Assembly: GCA_019308925.1 (NCBI GenBank)
Contig: JAFDHG010000007.1
Span: 10,169-74,168, forward strand
DNA from: Deltaproteobacteria bacterium
GTDB taxonomy: Bacteria > Desulfobacterota > B13-G15 > RBG-16-54-18
Direction of reading: 5' to 3'
DNA length: 64,000 bases
Shown here: piece by piece, positions 5,654-57,505 of the stretch
How positions within the stretch are numbered: the first letter of the stretch is position 1
Layout: every line of letters begins with the position of its first letter
The notes under the pieces: model-generated
What the model was told of the DNA's origin: nothing
Database searches by the model: none
Seen by the model: only the letters and a program-made list of their open reading frames with translations
Made by a program: the position numbers and the translations under genes

Positions 5654-6626
5654 CGGCCACCTCCAACTCTAAGTCTTGGATCATCCGTAGGTCTGCTCGA
5701 TGATCCCTCCCCCTGGTGGTTAGGTAGTTCCCGATCATGATCCCGTTGGCCCCTGCCCAGAAGACCAGGGGGTGGAGGTCACAGAGGCCGAATTCCCTCC
5801 CCCCACAGATCCGGATGTCCTTATCGGGGAGGATAAACCTGAAGAGGGCCACAGATTTTAAGATCTCCAAGGGGGGCAAGGGTTTGGTCCCCTCCAAGGG
5901 GGTCCCGGGGATAGGGTGGAGGAAGTTGAGGGCCACAGAGTCTACCCCAATCTCCTGTAAGGTAAAGGCAAGATCCAACCTCTGCTCTGCTGACTCCCCC
6001 AGGCCCAAGATCCCCCCACTGCATACCTCCAATCCGGCCTCTTTGGCCCATCTCAATGTATCTAGGTCCTCCTCATATCCATGGGTGGTGCAGATCTTGA
6101 GGAAAAAGGAGGAGGCCGTCTCCAGGTTATGGTGGTAACACCTGAGTCCGGCCTCCTTCAACTGGTGTGCCGCTTGTTGGGTGATGATTCCCAAGGAGGC
6201 ACAGAGGACAAGCCCTGTCTCCTCCCTCATTAAACGAAGGGCCTGAACGACCTTCCCCATCTCTCCCCCCCCAGGGGATTTGCCGCTGGTGACGACGGAA
6301 AAACGCCTCGCCCCCATGTGCTCGGCCTCCTGGGCCTTCTGCAGGATCTGCCGAGGGTCCATTAGTGGATAGACCTCGATCTGGGTCTTGTGGTGGGCAG
6401 ATTGGGCACAGAAGGCGCAATCCTCAGGGCAGCGTCCGGACTTGGCATTGACGATGGCGCAGAGTTTCACCCCATTTCCCTTGAAGTGGCCCCGGATGCG
6501 GCAGGCCCCATAAAGAAGGAGGGGTAGAAAGTTGTTTTCTATCCCCAGGAGGTCCTGGGCCGTGGGGGGGGTCAGCCCCTCTTCTTCTATGGCCTCCTGG
6601 ACACATCTCTCGATGAATTCCTGCAT
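5646..6626 (-). CDS. bioB: Biotin synthase (radical SAM). The start is probably the internal ATG at 6626 (MQEFIERC), not the track start at 6659.
   Basis: Radical SAM motif CPEDCAFC and BioB-like C-terminus. AAGGTG lies 5 nt upstream of the 6626 ATG. The predicted promoter and operator would sit inside the longer ORF. Confidence 0.9.
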   Translation of the reverse strand: MQEFIERCVQEAIEEEGLTPPTAQDLLGIENNFLPLLLYGACRIRGHFKGNGVKLCAIVNAKSGRCPEDCAFCAQSAHHKTQIEVYPLMDPRQILQKAQEAEHMGARRFSVVTSGKSPGGGEMGKVVQALRLMREETGLVLCASLGIITQQAAHQLKEAGLRCYHHNLETASSFFLKICTTHGYEEDLDTLRWAKEAGLEVCSGGILGLGESAEQRLDLAFTLQEIGVDSVALNFLHPIPGTPLEGTKPLPPLEILKSVALFRFILPDKDIRICGGREFGLCDLHPLVFWAGANGIMIGNYLTTRGRDHRADLRMIQDLELEVADG

Positions 6627-6672
6627 GATGACACCTTGATTTTGATGGACACATAGCACAGGAGGAAGGGAG

Positions 6673-6704
6673 TTGTCAACCTAAATCACCATAGTGGTTT
6701 ACCA
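6673..6704. promoter_or_regulatory. Candidate BirA (bio) operator: TTGTCAACC-N14-GGTTTACCA imperfect inverted repeat overlapping the bioB -35
   Basis: Half sites match 7 of 9 as reverse complements. The site resembles the BirA consensus TTGTAAACC-N14/15-GGTTTACAA and lies 47-78 nt upstream of bioB. Confidence 0.45.
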
Positions 6705-6816
6705 TTTGACTCCGCCTATGCAACTATCGACGTGTTTCTTAGGCGTCCCTTTGGGGACCCTGACCCCAAACCCTCACAAGAGGGAGTCCTTATTAGGGAT
6801 TTAAATAAAAAAGTTC

Positions 6817-6846
6817 TTGACATGTCTATATATGTATAGTATACAT
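6817..6846 (+). promoter_or_regulatory. lexA promoter (TTGACA-17-TATACA). A 15-bp palindrome ATGTATA-G-TATACAT overlaps the -10 and is a candidate LexA operator.
   Basis: Read directly from the sequence. The palindrome is perfect except for its centre base. Confidence 0.5.
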
Positions 6847-6861
6847 TTGTAAAGGTGACAA

Positions 6862-6881
6862 CTGTATAGTTTATAAGACAG
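6862..6881 (+). promoter_or_regulatory. Second candidate SOS-box-like element, CTGTATAGTTTATAAGACAG (CTGT-N12-ACAG), just upstream of the lexA ATG
   Basis: It shares TGTATAG with the upstream palindrome. The spacing differs from the E. coli CTGT-N8-ACAG. Confidence 0.3.
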
Positions 6882-6885
6882 AGAT

Positions 6886-7503
6886 ATGGAGACAATTACT
6901 GAGAAACAGAAAGAAGTCTACAATCTTATAGTAGAAAGCATTAAGAGATTGGGGTATCCTCCTTCCCTAAGAGAGATCGGGGCTGCGATGAAGATAACCC
7001 CTAATGCTGTTAGGGGGTACTTGGATGCCCTCGTAAAAAAGGGATATATTGAAAGAGATTCCATAGCTAGGGGTATCAGGGTAATAAAGCCCTTGGATAA
7101 AGAGACCTCAGTCAGCGGAAATGGAGATATAGTTACCTTACCCATTATCGGAAGAATCCAGGCAGGTCTGCCTATCTTAGCCATTGAAAACATTGAAGGG
7201 GAAGTATCCTTATCAAAAGATTTAAGGAAGGGGCTTGATGGATGCTTTCTCTTAAGGGTTCAGGGTGATAGTATGGTGGAGGATCATATCCTAGAAGGAG
7301 ACCTTGCCATTGTGAAACCTCAGGAGACAGCAGAGAATGGGAAGATTGTTGTTGCCTTAGTCAATGATGAAGCTACCATAAAACGATTTTACAGAGAGAA
7401 AACCAGGATCAGGCTTCAACCTGCAAATCCTCTTTACGAGCCGATCTATGTGGAAAGAGATTTTAAGGTTCAGGGTAAAGTAATTGGTTTAATCAGGATA
7501 TAA
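6886..7503 (+). CDS. lexA: LexA repressor (S24 peptidase family)
   Basis: 205 aa with an N-terminal winged HTH, an Ala-Gly cleavage site (IQAGLPI), catalytic Ser (GDSM) and catalytic Lys (IKRFY). Confidence 0.9.
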   Translation: METITEKQKEVYNLIVESIKRLGYPPSLREIGAAMKITPNAVRGYLDALVKKGYIERDSIARGIRVIKPLDKETSVSGNGDIVTLPIIGRIQAGLPILAIENIEGEVSLSKDLRKGLDGCFLLRVQGDSMVEDHILEGDLAIVKPQETAENGKIVVALVNDEATIKRFYREKTRIRLQPANPLYEPIYVERDFKVQGKVIGLIRI

Positions 7504-7531
7504 AAAGTAACAGACAATATGGATACATAGT

Positions 7532-7753
7532 ATGCCTTATAATACATGGTGGGTTACCAGACCGAGAAGATATCTGAATCCTATCCCAGAGGCAATCAAA
7601 ATTTTTGTCAATTATGTAGGTGAAGAATGGCTGACTGGCTCGGCAGTGCAATTGGATTTTGAAGATGAACTTGTGAAAGCAGGGCTAAAGGGCACAGGAG
7701 GCAAAAGAGACAAGAGAGGTAGTGGGGCAAGGAAGGCGTTATGGGTACAATAA
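7532..7753 (+). CDS. Hypothetical 73-aa protein, first ORF of the low-GC cassette
   Basis: Its end overlaps the next ORF start by 13 nt. The N-terminus is aromatic-rich (MPYNTWWVTRPRRY). No family recognised. Confidence 0.35.
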   Translation: MPYNTWWVTRPRRYLNPIPEAIKIFVNYVGEEWLTGSAVQLDFEDELVKAGLKGTGGKRDKRGSGARKALWVQ

Positions 7754-8163
7754 CCAAAAAAATAACAAAGTTTCAGATAAACTGTAGGGTTTGTCGAGAT
7801 ATTTTCCATGAAAAATTTTATAAGGAAATTCTCGGTTACCATCCAGAAGAATTGAATATTTATAATTTTGATGAAGAGACAGAGGAAATACTCTTTGTTA
7901 TGAATTGGAAGGACTGCCTGGAGTGCTACCACTTTAAATGCCACATATGTCACAAACCACCTGTTGTCCTTAATGAATCTTTAACTTGGGTAGAAGAATT
8001 ATCAAGTTGGTATTGTGATAATCATATTCCAAAAAGTAGTTCTGTCTTCAGAAACTATAGATGCAATAGGTGTGACAGAGAAGGAAATATGATTTGGGTA
8101 GAAAAAGAGGGTAAATGGTATTGTAAGCAGTGTATTCCTGTTGGGCTTTCAATATTTAGATGA
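7741..8163 (+). CDS. Cys-rich zinc-ribbon protein, 140 aa, with six CxxC pairs
   Basis: CxxC at residues 15, 59, 67, 107 and 128, plus CDNH. AAGGAAGG RBS upstream. Low-GC codon usage. Confidence 0.55.
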   Translation: MGTITKKITKFQINCRVCRDIFHEKFYKEILGYHPEELNIYNFDEETEEILFVMNWKDCLECYHFKCHICHKPPVVLNESLTWVEELSSWYCDNHIPKSSSVFRNYRCNRCDREGNMIWVEKEGKWYCKQCIPVGLSIFR

Positions 8164-8909
8164 CGGAGTTTGTTATGCAAAGACGAAATGCCGGTCTTAT
8201 GTGGGAAAATGCAATACTAACAGCAATTGAAAAATGTGGGGGTTCAGCCACGTTAAAAGAATTATATCAAACAATTCCTACAATTAAAAAAGTACCCATA
8301 GATAAGGATTGGAGAAAGATTATAAGGGCCTTCTTAAGACGCTTTGTAAGAATAAAAGGAAAGTTAAGAAGAACTGGACTTGGCATTTATAGTCTGAGCG
8401 ACAGTAGGGTTATTCCGACAATTTATGAAGAAATTAAGAGTGGCAGAAGCGAAAAGGAAATCCTTAAAAATATTCCAGATGAAACAAGGCATGGTCAAAT
8501 TGAAGGAATGTTGATAGGGTTAGGAAATATTTATAATTTTTCAACATATACTGCCGATCCAAACGAACTATTCAACGACAAAAGACTTTCAGCCCTAACG
8601 TCCTTAGACGAGCTTCCTGTGTTTTCTTCAAAAGAAGTAATAGATGTTGCAAAGGAGATAGATGTTATTTGGTTTAAAAAACGGGCATTGGCAATAGCCC
8701 CAAAACATACCTTTGATGTAGAGAAAAGCACTGATTTTACAAAGGCATTACATCGTGCTTATCAATTGCAAGACTTCAAGGTCAGTTTTTATTTTGTTGC
8801 ACCAACTTTTAAAGAAAACCAATTCAACAAGAGAATAAACACAAACCCTTATCAATCGTTAAAAAATTCTTTCTTCTATCGAAGCTTCAAAGATGTAATA
8901 GCCCTCTAG
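8160..8909 (+). CDS. Protein with an Mrr_N-like winged-helix N-terminus and an uncharacterised C-terminal domain (244-249 aa)
   Basis: The N-terminus (MWENAILTAIEKCGGSATLKELYQTI...RTGLGIYSL) matches the restriction-system Mrr_N-type winged helix by eye. ATGA overlap with the previous ORF. An alternative ATG at 8175 has a GGAG RBS. Confidence 0.6.
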   Translation: MTEFVMQRRNAGLMWENAILTAIEKCGGSATLKELYQTIPTIKKVPIDKDWRKIIRAFLRRFVRIKGKLRRTGLGIYSLSDSRVIPTIYEEIKSGRSEKEILKNIPDETRHGQIEGMLIGLGNIYNFSTYTADPNELFNDKRLSALTSLDELPVFSSKEVIDVAKEIDVIWFKKRALAIAPKHTFDVEKSTDFTKALHRAYQLQDFKVSFYFVAPTFKENQFNKRINTNPYQSLKNSFFYRSFKDVIAL

Positions 8910-9138
8910 AAATCAGCAGTCGAACATTATGAAAAAAGGGAAAGATTCATCGTCGAACCTTAATTATTACCTCACAAAGTCAAGGGGACTTACACCAAAA
9001 CGTAATTATACAGCAGGGTTAATTGAAGTAGAATGGTTGATGGTTTTTAAAAAGATGGATTGATAGAAACTTTACTATTCCTTTAAGACTTCCACGTTCA
9101 TGACTCAGGAAGAAGAAAGGAAATACCTTATTGGGGGT

Positions 9139-9161
9139 TTCAGGGGGCCTTGCCCCCTGAA
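9139..9161. terminator. Perfect 10-bp GC-rich hairpin (TTCAGGGGGC-ctt-GCCCCCTGAA) with an outer GGTTTCAG/CTGAAACC extension, a likely bidirectional terminator
   Basis: It lies between the convergent low-GC cassette (+) and the end of the yibQ-like operon (-). There is no clear U-tract. Confidence 0.4.
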
Positions 9162-9241
9162 GTAGACCTGAAACCACATAAGGGCCGAAATGGCACAGGG
9201 ACTCAATTTACCGTACAGTATTTTCGCGGCAAAATGGTTGA

Positions 9242-10456
9242 CTAATCCAAAATCTGGGAAAGGGGGACAATTTCCACCCCCTCTGCCTGTAGCTTGGGAA
9301 TCACCTCCTTGAGGGCGGTGATGGTAGCGGGGTGGGGGTGGCATATCCCGATGGCCTTGCCGTGGGTCTGAGCGATTCGGATCAACCTTTTCAATTGGGC
9401 TTCGATATCCTTCACATTGGCTTCGTTGTCCAAGAAGAGGTCTCTTTTGCCCACCTTCAGGGCCATCTCTTGGGCGATCCGATAGCCCTTGCTCTTGGAT
9501 GTGGTGAGGCTATCAAGAAAGAAGAGGTCTCTTTTTTTCAATTCTTGCAGCACCAACCTCACCTTTTCCCCATGTTCCATGAACCGAGAGCCCATATGGT
9601 TGTCTACCCCCCTGATGTAAGGGATCGCTTCTAGATCCTCTCTCAACTGGCGCAAGAGCTCTTTTTCGCCCATGGAGACAAAGAGGGCCCCTTCTCCTGG
9701 GTCCTTTAAAGGATATCCACGTGGCTCCATGGGCAGATGAAGGATGACCTCCCTGCCCTGGGCATGGGCCCTTTGGGCGATGCGGCGGGAAAAGGAACGC
9801 AAGGGTAAGATGGAGAAGGTCAGGGGGACATCCAGACGCAAAAACTCCTCGGCGGCCTTTTTGTCCAGCCCTAGATCGTCCACCACAATGACTATACGGT
9901 GCCGCAGAGGTATAGGTTTAGGTGGCTTCAATTTTGGGGGACGGAGGATCAGGTGGTGGGTCAAGAGGCCATCGGTCCTTAGCTCTATCCCCCAAGCGCC
10001 GTCCGGGGCCCTCGCCCTGGTTAGGGTGACCTCTGGGCAGACCTCCTTTATCTTCTGCACCAGCTGGGAGGTGAACTTTTCCGGCCCGGCCCCTTGGGGC
10101 AAAATTACCTCCCAGTAGGATAGGGTCCAGGCCTTTCCCTCCCTCCTTCGCGCTTCCCCCCACTTGTGGATATCGTTGCGGGGGATCTCCAACTGATAAA
10201 ACTGGGCAAGCAGCACCTGATCCACCACCCTCACCCTCTGAGGGAAAGGGGTGGGGGGGGGTCTCAGGTGCAGATAATACAGGGTGATCCCCAGAACAGC
10301 CCCCATGCATAAAAGGACCACTAACCAGATGGGGATTTTTCTGCCCTTCTTTTTTTTTCTCGTAGAAGGGGACCTCTTTTTGACGGTGGACCTTCGACTG
10401 GTGCTTGCCTTAGGGGGAGTAGTTCTTCCCTTCCTGTTGCCCCTTTTGTCGGCCAC
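9242..10456 (-). CDS. Divergent polysaccharide deacetylase family protein (YibQ-like) with an N-terminal membrane anchor
   Basis: 404 aa: a basic N-terminus, one transmembrane segment, then a YibQ-type domain. Last gene of the ftsEX-envC-ctpA operon. Confidence 0.7.
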   Translation of the reverse strand: MADKRGNRKGRTTPPKASTSRRSTVKKRSPSTRKKKKGRKIPIWLVVLLCMGAVLGITLYYLHLRPPPTPFPQRVRVVDQVLLAQFYQLEIPRNDIHKWGEARRREGKAWTLSYWEVILPQGAGPEKFTSQLVQKIKEVCPEVTLTRARAPDGAWGIELRTDGLLTHHLILRPPKLKPPKPIPLRHRIVIVVDDLGLDKKAAEEFLRLDVPLTFSILPLRSFSRRIAQRAHAQGREVILHLPMEPRGYPLKDPGEGALFVSMGEKELLRQLREDLEAIPYIRGVDNHMGSRFMEHGEKVRLVLQELKKRDLFFLDSLTTSKSKGYRIAQEMALKVGKRDLFLDNEANVKDIEAQLKRLIRIAQTHGKAIGICHPHPATITALKEVIPKLQAEGVEIVPLSQILD

Positions 10457-51860: not shown

Positions 51861-53189
51861 ATGGAAGATTTCTGGCTACAGGTTTTAGAGGCCATCAAGG
51901 GACAGATAAATATAAACAGCTTTGAGACATGGATTAAACCCATTCAGGTTGGGTCCCTATTAGAGAAGGAGATCATCCTCGAGGTGCCCAATAACTTCTT
52001 CCGTGACTGGGTCGCCGAGCATTACTTAAATACTATAAAAACGGCTCTTTATGACCTAACTGGTGAAGATTTTTTGGTATCCCTACAGACAAAGAAGATG
52101 AAGCCTCCCTACCTGAAAGGGGCTTCGGAAAAGAAAGTGGCGGTTGATGAAGATTTGGCCAGCCGCATGTTCAACCTCCGGTATACCTTTGAAAATTTTG
52201 TGGCTGGTGCGGGGAACCAATTTGCCCATGCAGCATCACAGGCAGTAGCCGACACACCAGGGAGAAGATATAACCCCCTGTTTATTTATGGCGGGGTTGG
52301 GTTGGGGAAGACACATCTATTGAACGCCATCGGCCACCGAATGGTAAAAAACAGGACCGTCTCTGACCCCAACAAGCTGTGTTATATCTCTTCTGAGGAG
52401 TTCACAAATGAACTGGTCAACTCCATTCGTTTTGAGCGCATGGATGGATTTAGGCGGAGGTTCAGGAGTGTCGAGGTACTTCTGATAGACGATATCCAGT
52501 TTATTTCTGGGAAGGAGAGGACGCAGATAGAGTTTTTCCATACTTTCAACTCTTTGTATGAGAACAAAAGGCAAATTGTAATCACGAGCGATAAGTTCCC
52601 TCGAGAAATCCCTGATTTTGAGGAGCGTCTCAAATCCCGCTTTGAGTGGGGTCTCATCGCCGACATCCAACCTCCTGATGTTGAGACAAAGGTGGCTATT
52701 CTAAAGAAAAAGGCAGAGCTAGAAAATATATATATACCTAATGATGTAGCATTTTTTTTGGCTTCTCACATCAATTCTAATATCCGCATATTGGAGGGCT
52801 GTCTCATAAGACTGGGGGCCTTTGCTTCTCTTACCAAGAGGGAAATTACCCTAGAAATGGCCAAGGAGGTATTGAGAAGCTTTATAAAAGACAGGGAGGC
52901 GACAATTTCCATCGATAATATACAAAAGAGGGTTGCATCCTATTTTAACCTAAAGCCAAAAGATCTGAGGTCTAAAAGGAGATTGAAACAAGTGGTGATA
53001 CCCAGGCAGATAGCCATGTATCTTGCCAAAAAGCTCACTACTTGTTCCCTCATAGAGATTGGGGAAAAGTTCGGTGGAAAGGATCATTCTACGGTTATCC
53101 ACTCTATAAAGAAGACTGAAGAAAAGATTTCCCACGATAAATACATAAAAAGTGTAGTCGATGATCTAATGGCAAAAATTAGGGAGTAG
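51861..53189 (+). CDS. dnaA: Chromosomal replication initiator DnaA
   Basis: AAA+ Walker A (GGVGLGKTHLL), sensor motifs and a C-terminal DNA-binding domain. 442 aa. Confidence 0.95.
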   Translation: MEDFWLQVLEAIKGQININSFETWIKPIQVGSLLEKEIILEVPNNFFRDWVAEHYLNTIKTALYDLTGEDFLVSLQTKKMKPPYLKGASEKKVAVDEDLASRMFNLRYTFENFVAGAGNQFAHAASQAVADTPGRRYNPLFIYGGVGLGKTHLLNAIGHRMVKNRTVSDPNKLCYISSEEFTNELVNSIRFERMDGFRRRFRSVEVLLIDDIQFISGKERTQIEFFHTFNSLYENKRQIVITSDKFPREIPDFEERLKSRFEWGLIADIQPPDVETKVAILKKKAELENIYIPNDVAFFLASHINSNIRILEGCLIRLGAFASLTKREITLEMAKEVLRSFIKDREATISIDNIQKRVASYFNLKPKDLRSKRRLKQVVIPRQIAMYLAKKLTTCSLIEIGEKFGGKDHSTVIHSIKKTEEKISHDKYIKSVVDDLMAKIRE

Positions 53190-53317
53190 TTTTGCACAGA
53201 GATGAACTTCGATATGTGAAAATAGTAAACAAACTTATTCTCTTTATTATCAGTGAATTATAGGAGATATTAACCTTTTAACACCTATTATTACTACTAA
53301 GAACTAAGGAAACTTAT
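53190..53317. other. Candidate DNA-unwinding-element-like spacer: AT-rich (about 30% GC) dnaA-dnaN intergenic region
   Basis: Composition judged by eye against flanking genes of about 55% GC or more. It contains only weak DnaA-box-like 9-mers (TTATCAGTG). Confidence 0.35.
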
Positions 53318-54424
53318 ATGAAGTTCATAGTAGAAAAGGCCTTTTTTCAGACAAGTTTGGGAAAAATTCAAGGGATTGCAGAAAGAAGAAGTACCATTCC
53401 CATTCTTTCAAACATATTAATTTCAGGAGAGAAGAACAGGTTAAATATAGTGGCCACCGACCTCGAAATAGGAGTGAAGGAAAGTATTGAGGCCAACATT
53501 ATGGAAAAGGGCGACATCTGTATCCCTGCGAAAAAGCTATATGATGCTGTCAGAGAGCTTTCCGAAGAGAAGGTTGAAATACAACGAGAAGGGAACTTTT
53601 GGATCTCGATAAAGGCTGGTAAAACAATCTTCAGCCTTCCTGGGGTAGACCCCGACGAGTTTCCCAAATTTCCCGATACTGAGGGCGCTAATTATTTTAA
53701 TTTAAGGACTTCCGACCTCTTAGGAATGGTTGAAAAGACTGTTTTCGCAGCTTCGACAGAGGAATCTAGGTTCAATCTTAATGGAATTTATATGGAGAAG
53801 GTGAAGGAGGAAAACAGAGAGTTTTTACGCATGGTGGCTACTGATGGACACAGGTTATCCAAAATAGATAAAGAGGTGGAGTCAACCCTAGACAAGGGTG
53901 TTATTATCCCCCGCCGAGGTTTGATAGAGTTAAGGAGGATCTTAGGGGAAGAAGAGGAGGAGGTGGCCATTTCTATCAAGGACAACAACTGTATTTTTAA
54001 GACAAATCGCAATACGGTAGTAGTTCGCCTATTAGAAGGAGAATACCCTGACTATCAACAGGTTATTCCCACAGCTAACGACAAGCTGATATTGGTTAAC
54101 AAAAAAGAGTTTATGGGTTCTTTACGTCGAGCCCAAGTAATCGCCAGCGAAAAAGGAGAAGGGGTTAGATTCTCCATAAAGGGTGGTCTAATGGAGATCA
54201 ACACGGGAGGCCCAGATGTGGGCAGTGTACAAGAAGAGATAAAGATCGATTATGAAGGGGACCCCTTAGAAATATCCTTTAATGCCAGATACCTCCTAGA
54301 TGTTTTGAATATAATGGATGCGGATGAGGTAAGGGTGGAGTTAAAAGAAGAATTGATTGCTGGGGTGATAAGACCTGTGGATGGAGAGGCGTTTTTATAT
54401 GTAATAATGCCCATGCGCCCTTAA
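53318..54424 (+). CDS. dnaN: DNA polymerase III beta sliding clamp
   Basis: 368 aa with three-domain clamp architecture and a conserved N-terminus. Confidence 0.92.
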   Translation: MKFIVEKAFFQTSLGKIQGIAERRSTIPILSNILISGEKNRLNIVATDLEIGVKESIEANIMEKGDICIPAKKLYDAVRELSEEKVEIQREGNFWISIKAGKTIFSLPGVDPDEFPKFPDTEGANYFNLRTSDLLGMVEKTVFAASTEESRFNLNGIYMEKVKEENREFLRMVATDGHRLSKIDKEVESTLDKGVIIPRRGLIELRRILGEEEEEVAISIKDNNCIFKTNRNTVVVRLLEGEYPDYQQVIPTANDKLILVNKKEFMGSLRRAQVIASEKGEGVRFSIKGGLMEINTGGPDVGSVQEEIKIDYEGDPLEISFNARYLLDVLNIMDADEVRVELKEELIAGVIRPVDGEAFLYVIMPMRP

Positions 54425-54480
54425 GACCAGAGATATCCCCTCCTATAAAAATGTCTTTTCCTGTTCATTTCATAGATTAA

Positions 54481-57505
<3,025 letters not shown>

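What the first reader, a model, noticed from the sequence alone, without database searches (positions are those of the whole stretch)
7504..9161. Low-GC three-gene cassette directly downstream of lexA: small ORF, multi-CxxC zinc-ribbon protein and Mrr_N-like winged-helix protein
The stretch from about 7500 to 9100 is visibly AT-rich against the GC-rich flanks, so it reads as an acquired island. It holds three tightly overlapping ORFs: 7532-7753, 7741-8163 (13-nt overlap) and 8160-8909 (ATGA overlap). None looks like a housekeeping gene. The middle one is a 140-aa protein with six CxxC pairs (several zinc ribbons). The last has an N-terminus that by eye matches the winged helix found on Mrr-type restriction proteins, followed by an unassigned ~150-aa domain. 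The island sits between the SOS repressor gene and a strong bidirectional hairpin. There is no integrase or transposase. Small zinc-ribbon plus nucleic-acid-binding effector pairs in low-GC islands are the typical look of uncharacterised anti-phage or toxin modules. The closeness to lexA, with candidate LexA palindromes in the lexA promoter, raises the possibility of SOS coupling.
Basis: partly seen in the sequence, partly recalled or inferred. Interest (0 to 1): 0.7.

Follow-up and report, generated by a model that had tools for sequence, protein, structure and literature searches.

The report
Decayed restriction-enzyme locus beside lexA
The AT-rich stretch after lexA is a broken, horizontally acquired restriction-enzyme locus: a stump of one nuclease gene, a rare zinc-ribbon gene, a second nuclease gene cut short by a stop codon, and a methylase stump. 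It is not a purpose-built SOS or anti-phage module.

Summary

- **ORF2:** a three-site zinc-ribbon protein that precedes this nuclease in its closest relatives. The family is tiny: 2 cluster representatives among 1.84 billion.
- **ORF1:** not a gene of its own. It is the first ~70 codons of an AlwI-family type IIS restriction endonuclease.
- **8959-9057:** the last 33 codons of a DNA methyltransferase. The window holds no intact methylase.
- **Related contigs:** the zinc-ribbon + nuclease pair sits where the end of the AlwI-like gene and the start of the methylase gene should be.
- **lexA:** about 25 related loci lie elsewhere, none next to lexA. The lexA operator palindrome is absent from the cassette, so SOS coupling would be read-through at most.

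Verdict: a decaying restriction-type island. The intact two-gene cassette is uncharacterised and moderately interesting.

The parts
6886..7503 (+). lexA. This is context, not part of the restriction block. It is the only apparent source of transcription into the island.
   Evidence: NCBIfam TIGR00498 lexA scores 208.8 bits (cutoff 110.95). Pfam finds LexA_DNA_bind and Peptidase_S24. The promoter has TTGACA at 6817-6822 and the palindrome TGTATAGTATACA at 6833-6845. No terminator-like site was found on the + strand between lexA and position 9000.
7532..7753 (+). ORF1: the 5' stump (about 70 codons) of an AlwI-family type IIS restriction endonuclease gene, ending in a deletion junction just before ORF2.
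   Evidence: ORF1 shares a 90%-identity cluster with proteins of 490-569 aa (P0100-P0102). These match Pfam RE_AlwI at 32 bits (cutoff 23) and weakly match FokI_cleav_dom. Window 7528-7731 is 75% identical to L035 42-245, the start of that gene. tblastn with P0101 residues 1-74 gives 81% identity. Annotated AlwI-family genes on Geobacillus plasmids match P0101 residues 6-182.
7741..8163 (+). ORF2: a 140-aa protein with three Zn-binding sites (C15/C18/C59/C62; C67/C70/C92/H95; C108/C111/C128/C131). It is the conserved upstream partner of the nuclease. RBS AGGAAGG lies at 7730-7736.
   Evidence: Cys/His pattern. Internal repeat ..W(V)EE..(S/K)WYC..(H/C) and DNA repeat 8008-8030 / 8116-8138. Homologues lie directly upstream of the nuclease in L007, L006, L030 and L035. 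Only 2 cluster representatives were found in 1.84e9 proteins. No significant Pfam, PADLOC, PHROG, NCBIfam or PDB match.
8175..8909 (+). ORF3: winged-helix + PD-(D/E)xK (NmeDI_C) nuclease, ended early by TAG at 8907-8909. The ORF could also start at 8160.
   Evidence: P0001 (identical from M6) carries PF27126 NmeDI_C. PADLOC REase_II PDLC03534 scores E 3.4e-5 and covers residues 97-240. All homologues run about 18 residues further.
8199..8399 (+). Winged-helix DNA-binding domain of ORF3 (residues ~14-80).
8472..8906 (+). PD-(D/E)xK nuclease domain of ORF3 (residues ~105-249). The putative active site is E115, D168 and D186-x-E188.
8910..8963 (+). Cut-off tail of ORF3: 17 codons (KSAVEHYEKRERFIVEP) plus the original TAA stop, still in frame behind the TAG.
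   Evidence: 76% amino-acid identity to the tails of the L030 and L006 homologues. TAT in the relatives is TAG here.
8959..9063 (+). Stump of a type II N6/N4 DNA methyltransferase gene: the last 33 codons, then one further codon and the stop.
   Evidence: tblastn with the L006 144-aa ORF gives 70% identity over residues 112-144. That ORF matches PADLOC MTase_II PDLC03362 positions 296-436 of 438, E 2e-18. Relative to L006, 363 nt are missing between 8963 and 8965.
9139..9161 (.). GC-rich hairpin between the convergent lexA-side and yibQ transcription units. It is probably the native shared terminator and lies outside the acquired block.
   Evidence: Stem of 10 bp. The 101-nt context folds at -34.7 kcal/mol, z -2.1. 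Homology to related loci ends at 9053-9057.

Best explanation
Bases ~7528-9063 are a horizontally acquired restriction-type locus that is decaying. It sits between the stop codon of lexA and the terminator hairpin that lexA shares with the convergent yibQ gene.

**Four pieces**
1. The first ~70 codons of an AlwI-family type IIS restriction endonuclease gene (ORF1).
2. A rare triple zinc-ribbon protein (ORF2).
3. A nuclease made of a winged-helix DNA-binding domain and an NmeDI_C-type PD-(D/E)xK cleavage domain (ORF3). Here a recent TAT-to-TAG mutation truncates it.
4. The last 33 codons of a DNA methyltransferase.

**The intact form, from related contigs**
The zinc-ribbon gene and the nuclease gene are a conserved pair under purifying selection. 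The pair occupies the place where the 3' end of the AlwI-like gene and the first two thirds of the methylase gene lie in a cassette-free relative.

**Inferred mechanism of the intact nuclease**
- The winged helix binds DNA.
- The cleavage domain resembles FokI, BspD6I and BamHI in fold and carries a D...DxE motif. It cuts beside the bound site, after pairing with a second copy or with the AlwI-like large subunit.
- The zinc-ribbon protein acts as adaptor or regulator.

**In this genome**
The locus is most likely inactive. Any transcription would come from read-through out of the lexA promoter. That would be a by-product of where the block landed, not an evolved SOS circuit.

**Shown:** the identities of the four pieces, the lesions, the pairing of ORF2 with ORF3, and the fold.
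**Inferred:** the catalytic roles of residues, the mode of cleavage, the role of the zinc-ribbon protein, the loss of function, and the read-through.
For: **Composition.** The island holds the lowest GC in the window.

**Lesions in this copy.**
- All 20 aligned homologues extend ~18 residues past the window's TAG, and the tail is still encoded in frame at 8910-8963.
- 363 nt are missing from the methylase fragment relative to L006.
- The restriction-gene stump ends at about codon 70.
- ORF2 compared with its closest relative (L010) has dN/dS 0.75. Between intact loci the values are 0.06-0.12 for ORF2 and 0.03-0.16 for the nuclease.

**Reconstruction of the locus.**
- L036 carries the AlwI-like gene (569 aa) followed by the methylase N-terminus.
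- L035 is 88.6% identical to L036 up to codon 487 of that gene, then the zinc-ribbon gene starts.
- L030 and L007 carry independent deletions of the AlwI-like gene but keep the zinc-ribbon + nuclease pair intact.

**No methylase.** A motif scan found no candidate methylase anywhere in the 64-kb window.

**lexA.** The palindrome occurs only in the lexA promoter, and no terminator-like site lies between lexA and the island.
Against: - The TAG could be an assembly or consensus error in a metagenome-assembled genome. ORF3 would then be intact.
- The truncated 244-249-aa protein keeps every putative catalytic residue and may still fold. The model of the truncated domain is confident.
- ORF2 keeps all 12 metal ligands, so it may still be functional.
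- The stump of the AlwI-like gene is 91% identical in protein to L035 with saturated synonymous sites. This shows that long purifying selection acted on that gene after, or despite, the arrival of the cassette. It fits a working multi-subunit enzyme better than a dead relic.
Confidence: 0.7

Rival explanations
1. ORF2 + ORF3 are still a working stand-alone defence module. It would be a modification-dependent (type IV-like) nuclease whose winged helix reads modified DNA, with the zinc-ribbon protein as regulator. Losing the 18-residue tail would be tolerated.
For: - Across the family the nuclease is stand-alone. None of about 20 distinct loci with flanks has an intact adjacent methylase, except for one neighbouring type IIG enzyme.
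- Relatives fuse the same nuclease domain to HARE-HTH + EVE (L028) or to an OGG-like domain.
- Winged-helix/nuclease fusions have been shown to be 6mA-dependent type IV enzymes (PMC11037411).
- The catalytic residues are intact in the window copy.
Against: - The premature stop removes a tail with three nearly invariant residues.
- ORF2 is under relaxed constraint against its nearest relative (dN/dS 0.75).
- The neighbouring fragments are deleted further here than in relatives.
- No experiment or residue-level evidence shows that this winged helix reads a modification.
Confidence: 0.2
2. In its intact form the locus encodes a split type IIS restriction enzyme of the BspD6I kind. The AlwI-like protein is the large, site-recognising subunit. 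ORF3 is the small subunit that cuts the second strand. ORF2 is an adaptor. Protecting methylases are encoded elsewhere. The window holds its wreck.
For: - An AlwI-family gene lies directly upstream in L035. A different AlwI/nickase-like gene lies directly downstream of a distant relative of ORF3 in L022.
- The 490-aa AlwI-like gene stayed under purifying selection (dN/dS 0.07-0.11; stump 91% identical in protein with saturated synonymous sites).
- L010 has a complete 212-aa methylase, and part of another, upstream of the ORF2 homologue.
Against: - The AlwI-like gene is cut inside its FokI-like cleavage domain in L035. It was then deleted independently in three lineages while ORF2 + ORF3 stayed intact.
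- Most relatives of ORF3 have no AlwI-like neighbour.
- The adjacent methylase is always a fragment.
- ORF3 and the AlwI-like protein show no sequence relation.
Confidence: 0.3
3. One reading: a DNA-damage-induced toxin or anti-phage cassette, wired to the SOS response through lexA.
For: - The cassette is on the same strand as lexA, 28 nt after its stop codon. No terminator-like site lies between them, and no promoter-like site was found on the + strand before ORF2.
- The lexA promoter carries a perfect palindrome overlapping its -10 region.
Against: - No copy of the palindrome lies in 7504-9161 at up to 2 mismatches.
- None of the related loci is next to lexA. They sit between pyrD and pyrK, between leuD and leuB, and in other unrelated places.
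- The homologous block begins at 7528, after lexA, so lexA did not travel with it.
- The genes are damaged.
Confidence: 0.08
4. A toxin-antitoxin-like pair: ORF3 nuclease as toxin, ORF2 zinc-ribbon protein as its inhibitor.
For: - A small upstream gene abuts the nuclease gene.
- ORF2 diverges about four times faster than ORF3 (32% against 78% identity to the L030 lineage).
- In L010 the nuclease is deleted and ORF2 kept. In the window the nuclease is the gene carrying the nonsense codon.
Against: - Many relatives of the nuclease have no zinc-ribbon gene at all (L001, L002, L004, L008, L018 and others).
- ORF2 matches no known antitoxin family.
- No interaction data exist.
Confidence: 0.1

Closest known systems
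R.NmeDI of Neisseria meningitidis (type II, cuts on both sides of RCCGGY; PMC2095814) and Pfam family NmeDI_C (PF27126)
   Same: The C-terminal ~150 residues of ORF3 belong to the same domain family. This rests on precomputed PF27126 hits. It also rests on the 351-position PADLOC REase_II model, the same length as R.NmeDI, which matches at positions 166-316. A cleavage domain placed after a separate DNA-binding domain fits cutting at a distance from the site.
   Different: R.NmeDI is 351 aa with a different N-terminal half, and its gene overlaps a cognate C5 methylase gene. ORF3 has a ~90-residue winged helix instead, has no intact methylase next to it, and is truncated.
Winged-helix fusion endonucleases acting as 6mA-dependent type IV restriction enzymes (DpnI, HhiV4I and relatives; PMC11037411)
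   Different: The domain order is wH then nuclease, whereas DpnI has the nuclease first. The nuclease family is different. The winged helix is nearer to HARE-HTH and H1/H5. Dependence on methylation is untested. A zinc-ribbon partner gene is not reported in the passages of that paper read here.
Heterodimeric type IIS enzyme R.BspD6I (AlwI-family nickase large subunit + small catalytic subunit)
   Different: Sequence identity is only 6%. ORF3 has its own DNA-binding domain. The AlwI-like gene is truncated or deleted in every cassette-bearing locus seen, and no intact methylase is present.
Mrr (type IV; Mrr_N winged helix + Mrr_cat PD-QxK)
   Same: The overall plan is the same: an N-terminal winged helix and a C-terminal PD-(D/E)xK-fold nuclease.
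   Different: No Mrr_N or Mrr_cat profile match. The motif is D...DxE, not D...QxK.
AlwI-family type IIS restriction-modification systems
   Same: ORF1 is the N-terminus of such an enzyme. A methylase gene follows the full-length gene in L036.
   Different: Only ~70 codons of the enzyme and 33 codons of the methylase remain here.

Membership tests
NmeDI_C (PF27126) PD-(D/E)xK restriction nuclease domain | Significant match to the family profile | tested here: met
   PF27126 is recorded for P0001 (identical to ORF3 from M6) and for its homologues. PADLOC REase_II PDLC03534 scores E 3.4e-5. The local Pfam copy lacks this model, so the hit is precomputed and was not rerun.
NmeDI_C (PF27126) PD-(D/E)xK restriction nuclease domain | Restriction-endonuclease (alpha-beta-beta-beta-alpha-beta) fold with conserved acidic residues on strands 2 and 3 | tested here: met
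NmeDI_C (PF27126) PD-(D/E)xK restriction nuclease domain | Full-length, uninterrupted reading frame | tested here: not met
   TAG at 8907-8909 replaces a conserved Tyr, and 17 further conserved codons follow in frame.
Type II restriction-modification system | Cognate, intact DNA methyltransferase gene next to the nuclease gene | tested here: not met
   Only a 33-codon stump remains at 8959-9057. No ORF with methylase motifs was found in the 64-kb window.
Type II restriction-modification system | Sequence-specific cleavage blocked by the cognate methylation | not testable with these tools
   Needs enzyme assays.
Type IV winged-helix fusion endonucleases | Winged helix fused to a nuclease domain in one polypeptide | tested here: met
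Type IV winged-helix fusion endonucleases | Stand-alone gene with no protecting methylase in the neighbourhood | tested here: met
   In the loci with flanks the adjacent methylase ORFs are all fragments of 72-209 aa without motif IV, or absent.
Type IV winged-helix fusion endonucleases | Cleavage depends on modified DNA | not testable with these tools
   There is only indirect support: EVE and HARE-HTH fusions in relatives.
Mrr family | Mrr_N and Mrr_cat profile matches; D...QxK motif | tested here: not met
   No Mrr_N or Mrr_cat hit at E <= 1 for ORF3 or at E <= 0.01 in 60 relatives. The motif is D168...D186-x-E188.
Heterodimeric type IIS enzyme (BspD6I type) | Intact AlwI-family large subunit gene adjacent to the small-subunit gene | tested here: not met
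   The window keeps ~70 codons. L035 has a 490-aa version cut inside the cleavage domain.
Heterodimeric type IIS enzyme (BspD6I type) | Small subunit homologous to ss.BspD6I | tested here: inconclusive
AlwI-family restriction endonuclease (ORF1) | Homology to the family over the N-terminal recognition region | tested here: met
   Cluster mates P0101 and P0102 pass the RE_AlwI gathering score. Annotated AlwI-family genes match P0101 residues 6-182. ORF1 itself is only a fragment.
SOS (LexA) regulon member | LexA operator in front of the gene or operon | tested here: inconclusive
   There is no copy of the lexA-promoter palindrome inside the cassette. Co-transcription from the lexA promoter is possible, since no terminator was found. 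The LexA box of this lineage is assumed, not known.
Type II toxin-antitoxin pair | Match to a known toxin or antitoxin family; antitoxin neutralises toxin | tested here: not met
   No TA family hit in Pfam, PADLOC or NCBIfam. Neutralisation is not testable.

The most novel reading that the evidence does not exclude
The zinc-ribbon + winged-helix-nuclease pair is an autonomous, mobile nuclease cassette that invades and displaces restriction-modification systems. It lands inside methyltransferase genes of one family, next to their most conserved motifs, in a homing-like way. In doing so it disables the resident restriction gene and methylase in one step, and it persists while their remains decay.
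Probability: 0.12. Interest if true: 0.75.

Novelty: new variant of a known kind. Interest (0 to 1): 0.35.

Why it matters
For this genome it matters little. The island is a wreck, and the link to lexA is an accident of where it landed.

The family is more interesting. A winged-helix + NmeDI_C nuclease occurs across many bacterial and archaeal phyla, usually with no working methylase. It is often flanked by pieces of one methylase family, and in one lineage it is paired with a very rare triple zinc-ribbon protein. Only R.NmeDI has been studied in this domain family.

Testing an intact pair could add a new type IV-like or split type IIS enzyme. It could also show how one restriction-type element replaces another.

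Tried and rejected
- **Mrr_N assignment for the N-terminus.** No profile hit. I kept only 'winged helix, near HARE-HTH'.
- **ORF1 as a small independent gene.** Rejected once it clustered with 490-569-aa AlwI-family proteins.
- **ORF1 + ORF2 as one frameshifted gene.** Rejected. The ORF2 frame is closed by a stop at 7720-7722, and ORF2 has its own RBS.
- **A short 'YNAWWVT' match in L007.** On its own it was no better than shuffled DNA. Homology of L007 to L036 later showed that L007 does keep the region upstream of the AlwI-like gene.
- **Phage or plasmid origin.** There are no relatives of ORF3 in IMG/VR or in GenBank phages, and none of ORF2 in phages or plasmids. Five distant relatives of ORF3 on plasmids are stand-alone hypothetical proteins.
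- **Sequence searches of the PDB.** Profiles of ORF3, ORF2 and the clade-B partner gave nothing.
- **Homology between ORF3 and the AlwI-like protein.** None found.
- **lexA as part of the island.** Not settled. Its GC3 of 0.41 is an outlier, but dnaA and dnaN are almost as low. Homology to related loci starts only after lexA. Exact look-ups of LexA and P0001 for other contigs found nothing.
- **The afdb50 fold library.** Unavailable.
- **dN/dS for deep comparisons.** Synonymous sites were saturated, so those values are not informative.
Full report
**1. The observation.**
The three ORFs are at the stated coordinates on the + strand (7532-7753, 7741-8163, 8160-8909). The region is the most AT-rich of the window. 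ORF2 has GC 0.333 and ORF3 0.351. The neighbours bioB and yibQ have 0.575 and 0.554, and 500-nt windows average 0.518 (sd 0.061).

- Low GC begins near 6660 and includes lexA (0.417; GC3 0.41). dnaA and dnaN in the same window have GC3 of 0.45-0.50, so composition alone cannot show that lexA is foreign.
- A 10-bp GC-rich hairpin lies at 9139-9161.
- No tRNA, Rfam family, integrase or transposase lies nearby.

**2. ORF3 is a winged-helix nuclease of the NmeDI_C family.**
The window comes from a metagenome-assembled 'Deltaproteobacteria bacterium' (locus tags JRI46_01885 and JRI46_01890). Forty close homologues, and the identical NCBI protein (244 aa, starting at ATG 8175), carry Pfam PF27126 NmeDI_C. 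That model is missing from the local Pfam copy, which is why one search found nothing.

- PADLOC's 351-position type II REase model matches residues 97-240 (E 3.4e-5). R.NmeDI is 351 aa. It is a characterised enzyme that cuts on both sides of RCCGGY (PMC2095814).
- Foldseek was not significant.
- H111 and D168 are invariant and E115 nearly invariant across 60 relatives. D186 is nearly invariant and E188 invariant among the closest 21. From the predicted strands I infer a BamHI-like D...DxE active site.
- There is no Mrr_N match. Six of 60 relatives match HARE-HTH.

**3. ORF3 is truncated here.**
Every homologue continues for about 18 residues with the motif LY..A..H.E...E..I.EP. In the window the Tyr codon is TAG (8907-8909). 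The next 17 codons still read KSAVEHYEKRERFIVEP, followed by TAA (8910-8963). They are 76% identical to the relatives' tails. The change is therefore a recent nonsense mutation or an assembly error.

**4. ORF2.**
ORF2 has five CxxC motifs and one CxxH, which make three four-ligand sites. It also has an internal repeat, (L/M)(T/I)WVEE..(S/K)WYC..(H/C).

- Homologues lie directly upstream of the nuclease gene in L006, L007, L030 and L035.
- A full HMMER pass over 1.84 billion cluster representatives found two: P0041 at 85% identity and P0096 at 33%.
- No library or PDB sequence matches it.
- It is 32% identical to the L030-type protein, whereas the nuclease is 78% identical. All metal ligands are kept.

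**5. ORF1 and the right-hand stump.**
- ORF1 sits in a 90%-identity cluster with proteins of 490-569 aa. These pass the RE_AlwI gathering score, have a weak FokI-cleavage-domain match, and resemble annotated AlwI-family genes on Geobacillus plasmids.
- Window 7528-7731 aligns to the first 67 codons of that gene in L035. So ORF1 is a 5' stump that runs into a deletion junction just before ORF2.
- Downstream, 8959-9057 encodes the last 33 residues of a 144-aa ORF seen in L006 and L030. That ORF matches positions 296-436 of a 438-position type II methylase model.
- Relative to L006, 363 nt are missing.
- No ORF in the window has methylase motifs.

**6. Reconstruction from relatives.**
- L036 carries the 569-aa AlwI-like gene followed 14 nt later by the N-terminus of that methylase family.
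- L035 is 88.6% identical to L036 up to codon 487, inside the FokI-like domain. There the ORF2 homologue starts.
- So the ORF2 + ORF3 pair stands where the last ~80 codons of the restriction gene and the first ~290 codons of the methylase lie in L036.
- The restriction gene then lost 997 nt in L030 and almost everything in L007. In the window and L010 it lost all but ~70 codons, and those two share one junction.
- In L006, L007 and L030 the pair is intact and under purifying selection. dN/dS is 0.03-0.16 for the nuclease and 0.06-0.12 for ORF2.
- ORF2 between the window and L010 has dN/dS 0.75. L010 has lost the nuclease after codon 14.
- One point is puzzling. The restriction-gene remains are well conserved in protein: 91% with saturated synonymous sites, and dN/dS 0.07-0.11. 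The truncated gene may therefore have worked alongside the pair for a long time.

**7. The wider family.**
- A second clade, about 50% identical, has the nuclease followed by an unassigned 203-315-aa protein. It is often preceded by a 126-157-aa N-terminal piece of the same methylase family, or by a 71-89-aa zinc-ribbon ORF.
- These islands sit between housekeeping genes, for example pyrD and pyrK, or leuD and leuB.
- More distant members are stand-alone, pseudogenised (L025), next to an AlwI/nickase-like gene (L022), or fused to HARE-HTH + EVE beside a type IIG enzyme (L028).
- No locus has an intact neighbouring methylase of the usual kind.
- Relatives of ORF3 are absent from viral contigs and phage genomes, and the few plasmid relatives are unannotated. 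ORF2 has no phage or plasmid match.

**8. lexA and SOS.**
- lexA is a true equivalog.
- Its promoter has TTGACA at 6817-6822 and a perfect palindrome, TGTATAGTATACA, at 6833-6845. A degenerate second copy lies at 6863-6875. Within the region examined here (about 6400-9500) these are the only copies, and none lies in the cassette.
- No terminator-like site lies between lexA and the island, and no promoter-like site precedes ORF2. Read-through is therefore plausible.
- No related locus is near lexA, and homology starts after lexA. I read the adjacency as incidental.

**9. Mechanism and rivals.**
- **Best reading (0.7):** a decaying, acquired restriction-type block. Its core was a zinc-ribbon + winged-helix nuclease pair, and the window copy is probably inactive.
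- **For the intact pair, two readings stay open.** One is a stand-alone, possibly modification-dependent nuclease; this fits the family-wide lack of methylases and the EVE and HARE-HTH fusions (PMC11037411). The other is the small subunit of a split type IIS enzyme with the AlwI-like protein, on the BspD6I pattern.
- **Less likely:** a toxin-antitoxin reading and the SOS-module reading.

**10. Novelty.**
The nuclease domain family is named, and one member is characterised. Winged-helix nuclease fusions are a known kind. What is new is the rare zinc-ribbon partner and the way the pair replaces the junction of an AlwI-type R-M system. I rate it a new variant of a known kind, with interest 0.35. 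The window copy is a wreck. The intact cassette deserves a test.

Noticed in passing
window 51861-56913: dnaA, dnaN and gyrB lie together, so this is the replication-origin neighbourhood. dnaA and dnaN have GC3 of 0.45-0.50 against 0.60-0.78 for most genes of the window. Low GC3 here is therefore not limited to foreign DNA.
   Followed up: partly
window 6788-6802 and 9126-9140: An imperfect 15-nt direct repeat (CCTTATTAGGGATTT / CCTTATTGGGGGTTT) brackets lexA plus the island. It could be chance or an old insertion scar that includes lexA.
   Followed up: no
window 6817-6881: The lexA promoter has a perfect palindrome, TGTATAGTATACA, overlapping the -10 region. A degenerate second copy lies at 6863-6875. 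These are a candidate LexA operator for this lineage.
   Followed up: partly
L028 1527-6570: A 407-aa HARE-HTH + EVE + NmeDI_C fusion protein lies two genes downstream of a 977-aa type IIG restriction-methylase. It looks like a modification-reading version of the same nuclease domain inside a defence island.
   Followed up: partly
L001, L002, L004, L008, L009, L015, L018 (gene just downstream of the NmeDI_C gene): A conserved 203-315-aa partner protein has invariant D...SxK...WAEA residues and no match in Pfam, PADLOC or PDB sequences. It may be a second nuclease of the Cfr10I/NgoMIV type. That idea comes from memory of their SxK motif and was not tested.
   Followed up: partly
L001 5639-6019, L002 5628-6020, L009 5306-5779, L022 99-317, L024 2684-3313, L006 1185-1619: Methyltransferase ORFs next to NmeDI_C genes are always fragments of one family. 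They are either N-terminal pieces ending shortly after motif I or a C-terminal 144-aa piece. The C-terminal piece has pN/pS 0.18 between L006 and L030.
   Followed up: partly
L022 782-2922: A distant relative of ORF3 (36% identity) is followed directly by a 453-aa AlwI/nicking-endonuclease-like gene. This is a second, independent pairing of the two families.
   Followed up: no
L025 5989-6751: The NmeDI_C homologue in a Nitrospirota MAG is split by a frameshift. This is another decayed copy.
   Followed up: no
L009 719-4231: The gyrB gene of this contig carries an intein (Intein_splicing, LAGLIDADG hits). This is unrelated to the finding.
   Followed up: no
P0092 (397 aa): One family member combines an OGG-like (putative 8-oxoguanine glycosylase-like) domain with NmeDI_C.
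   Followed up: no
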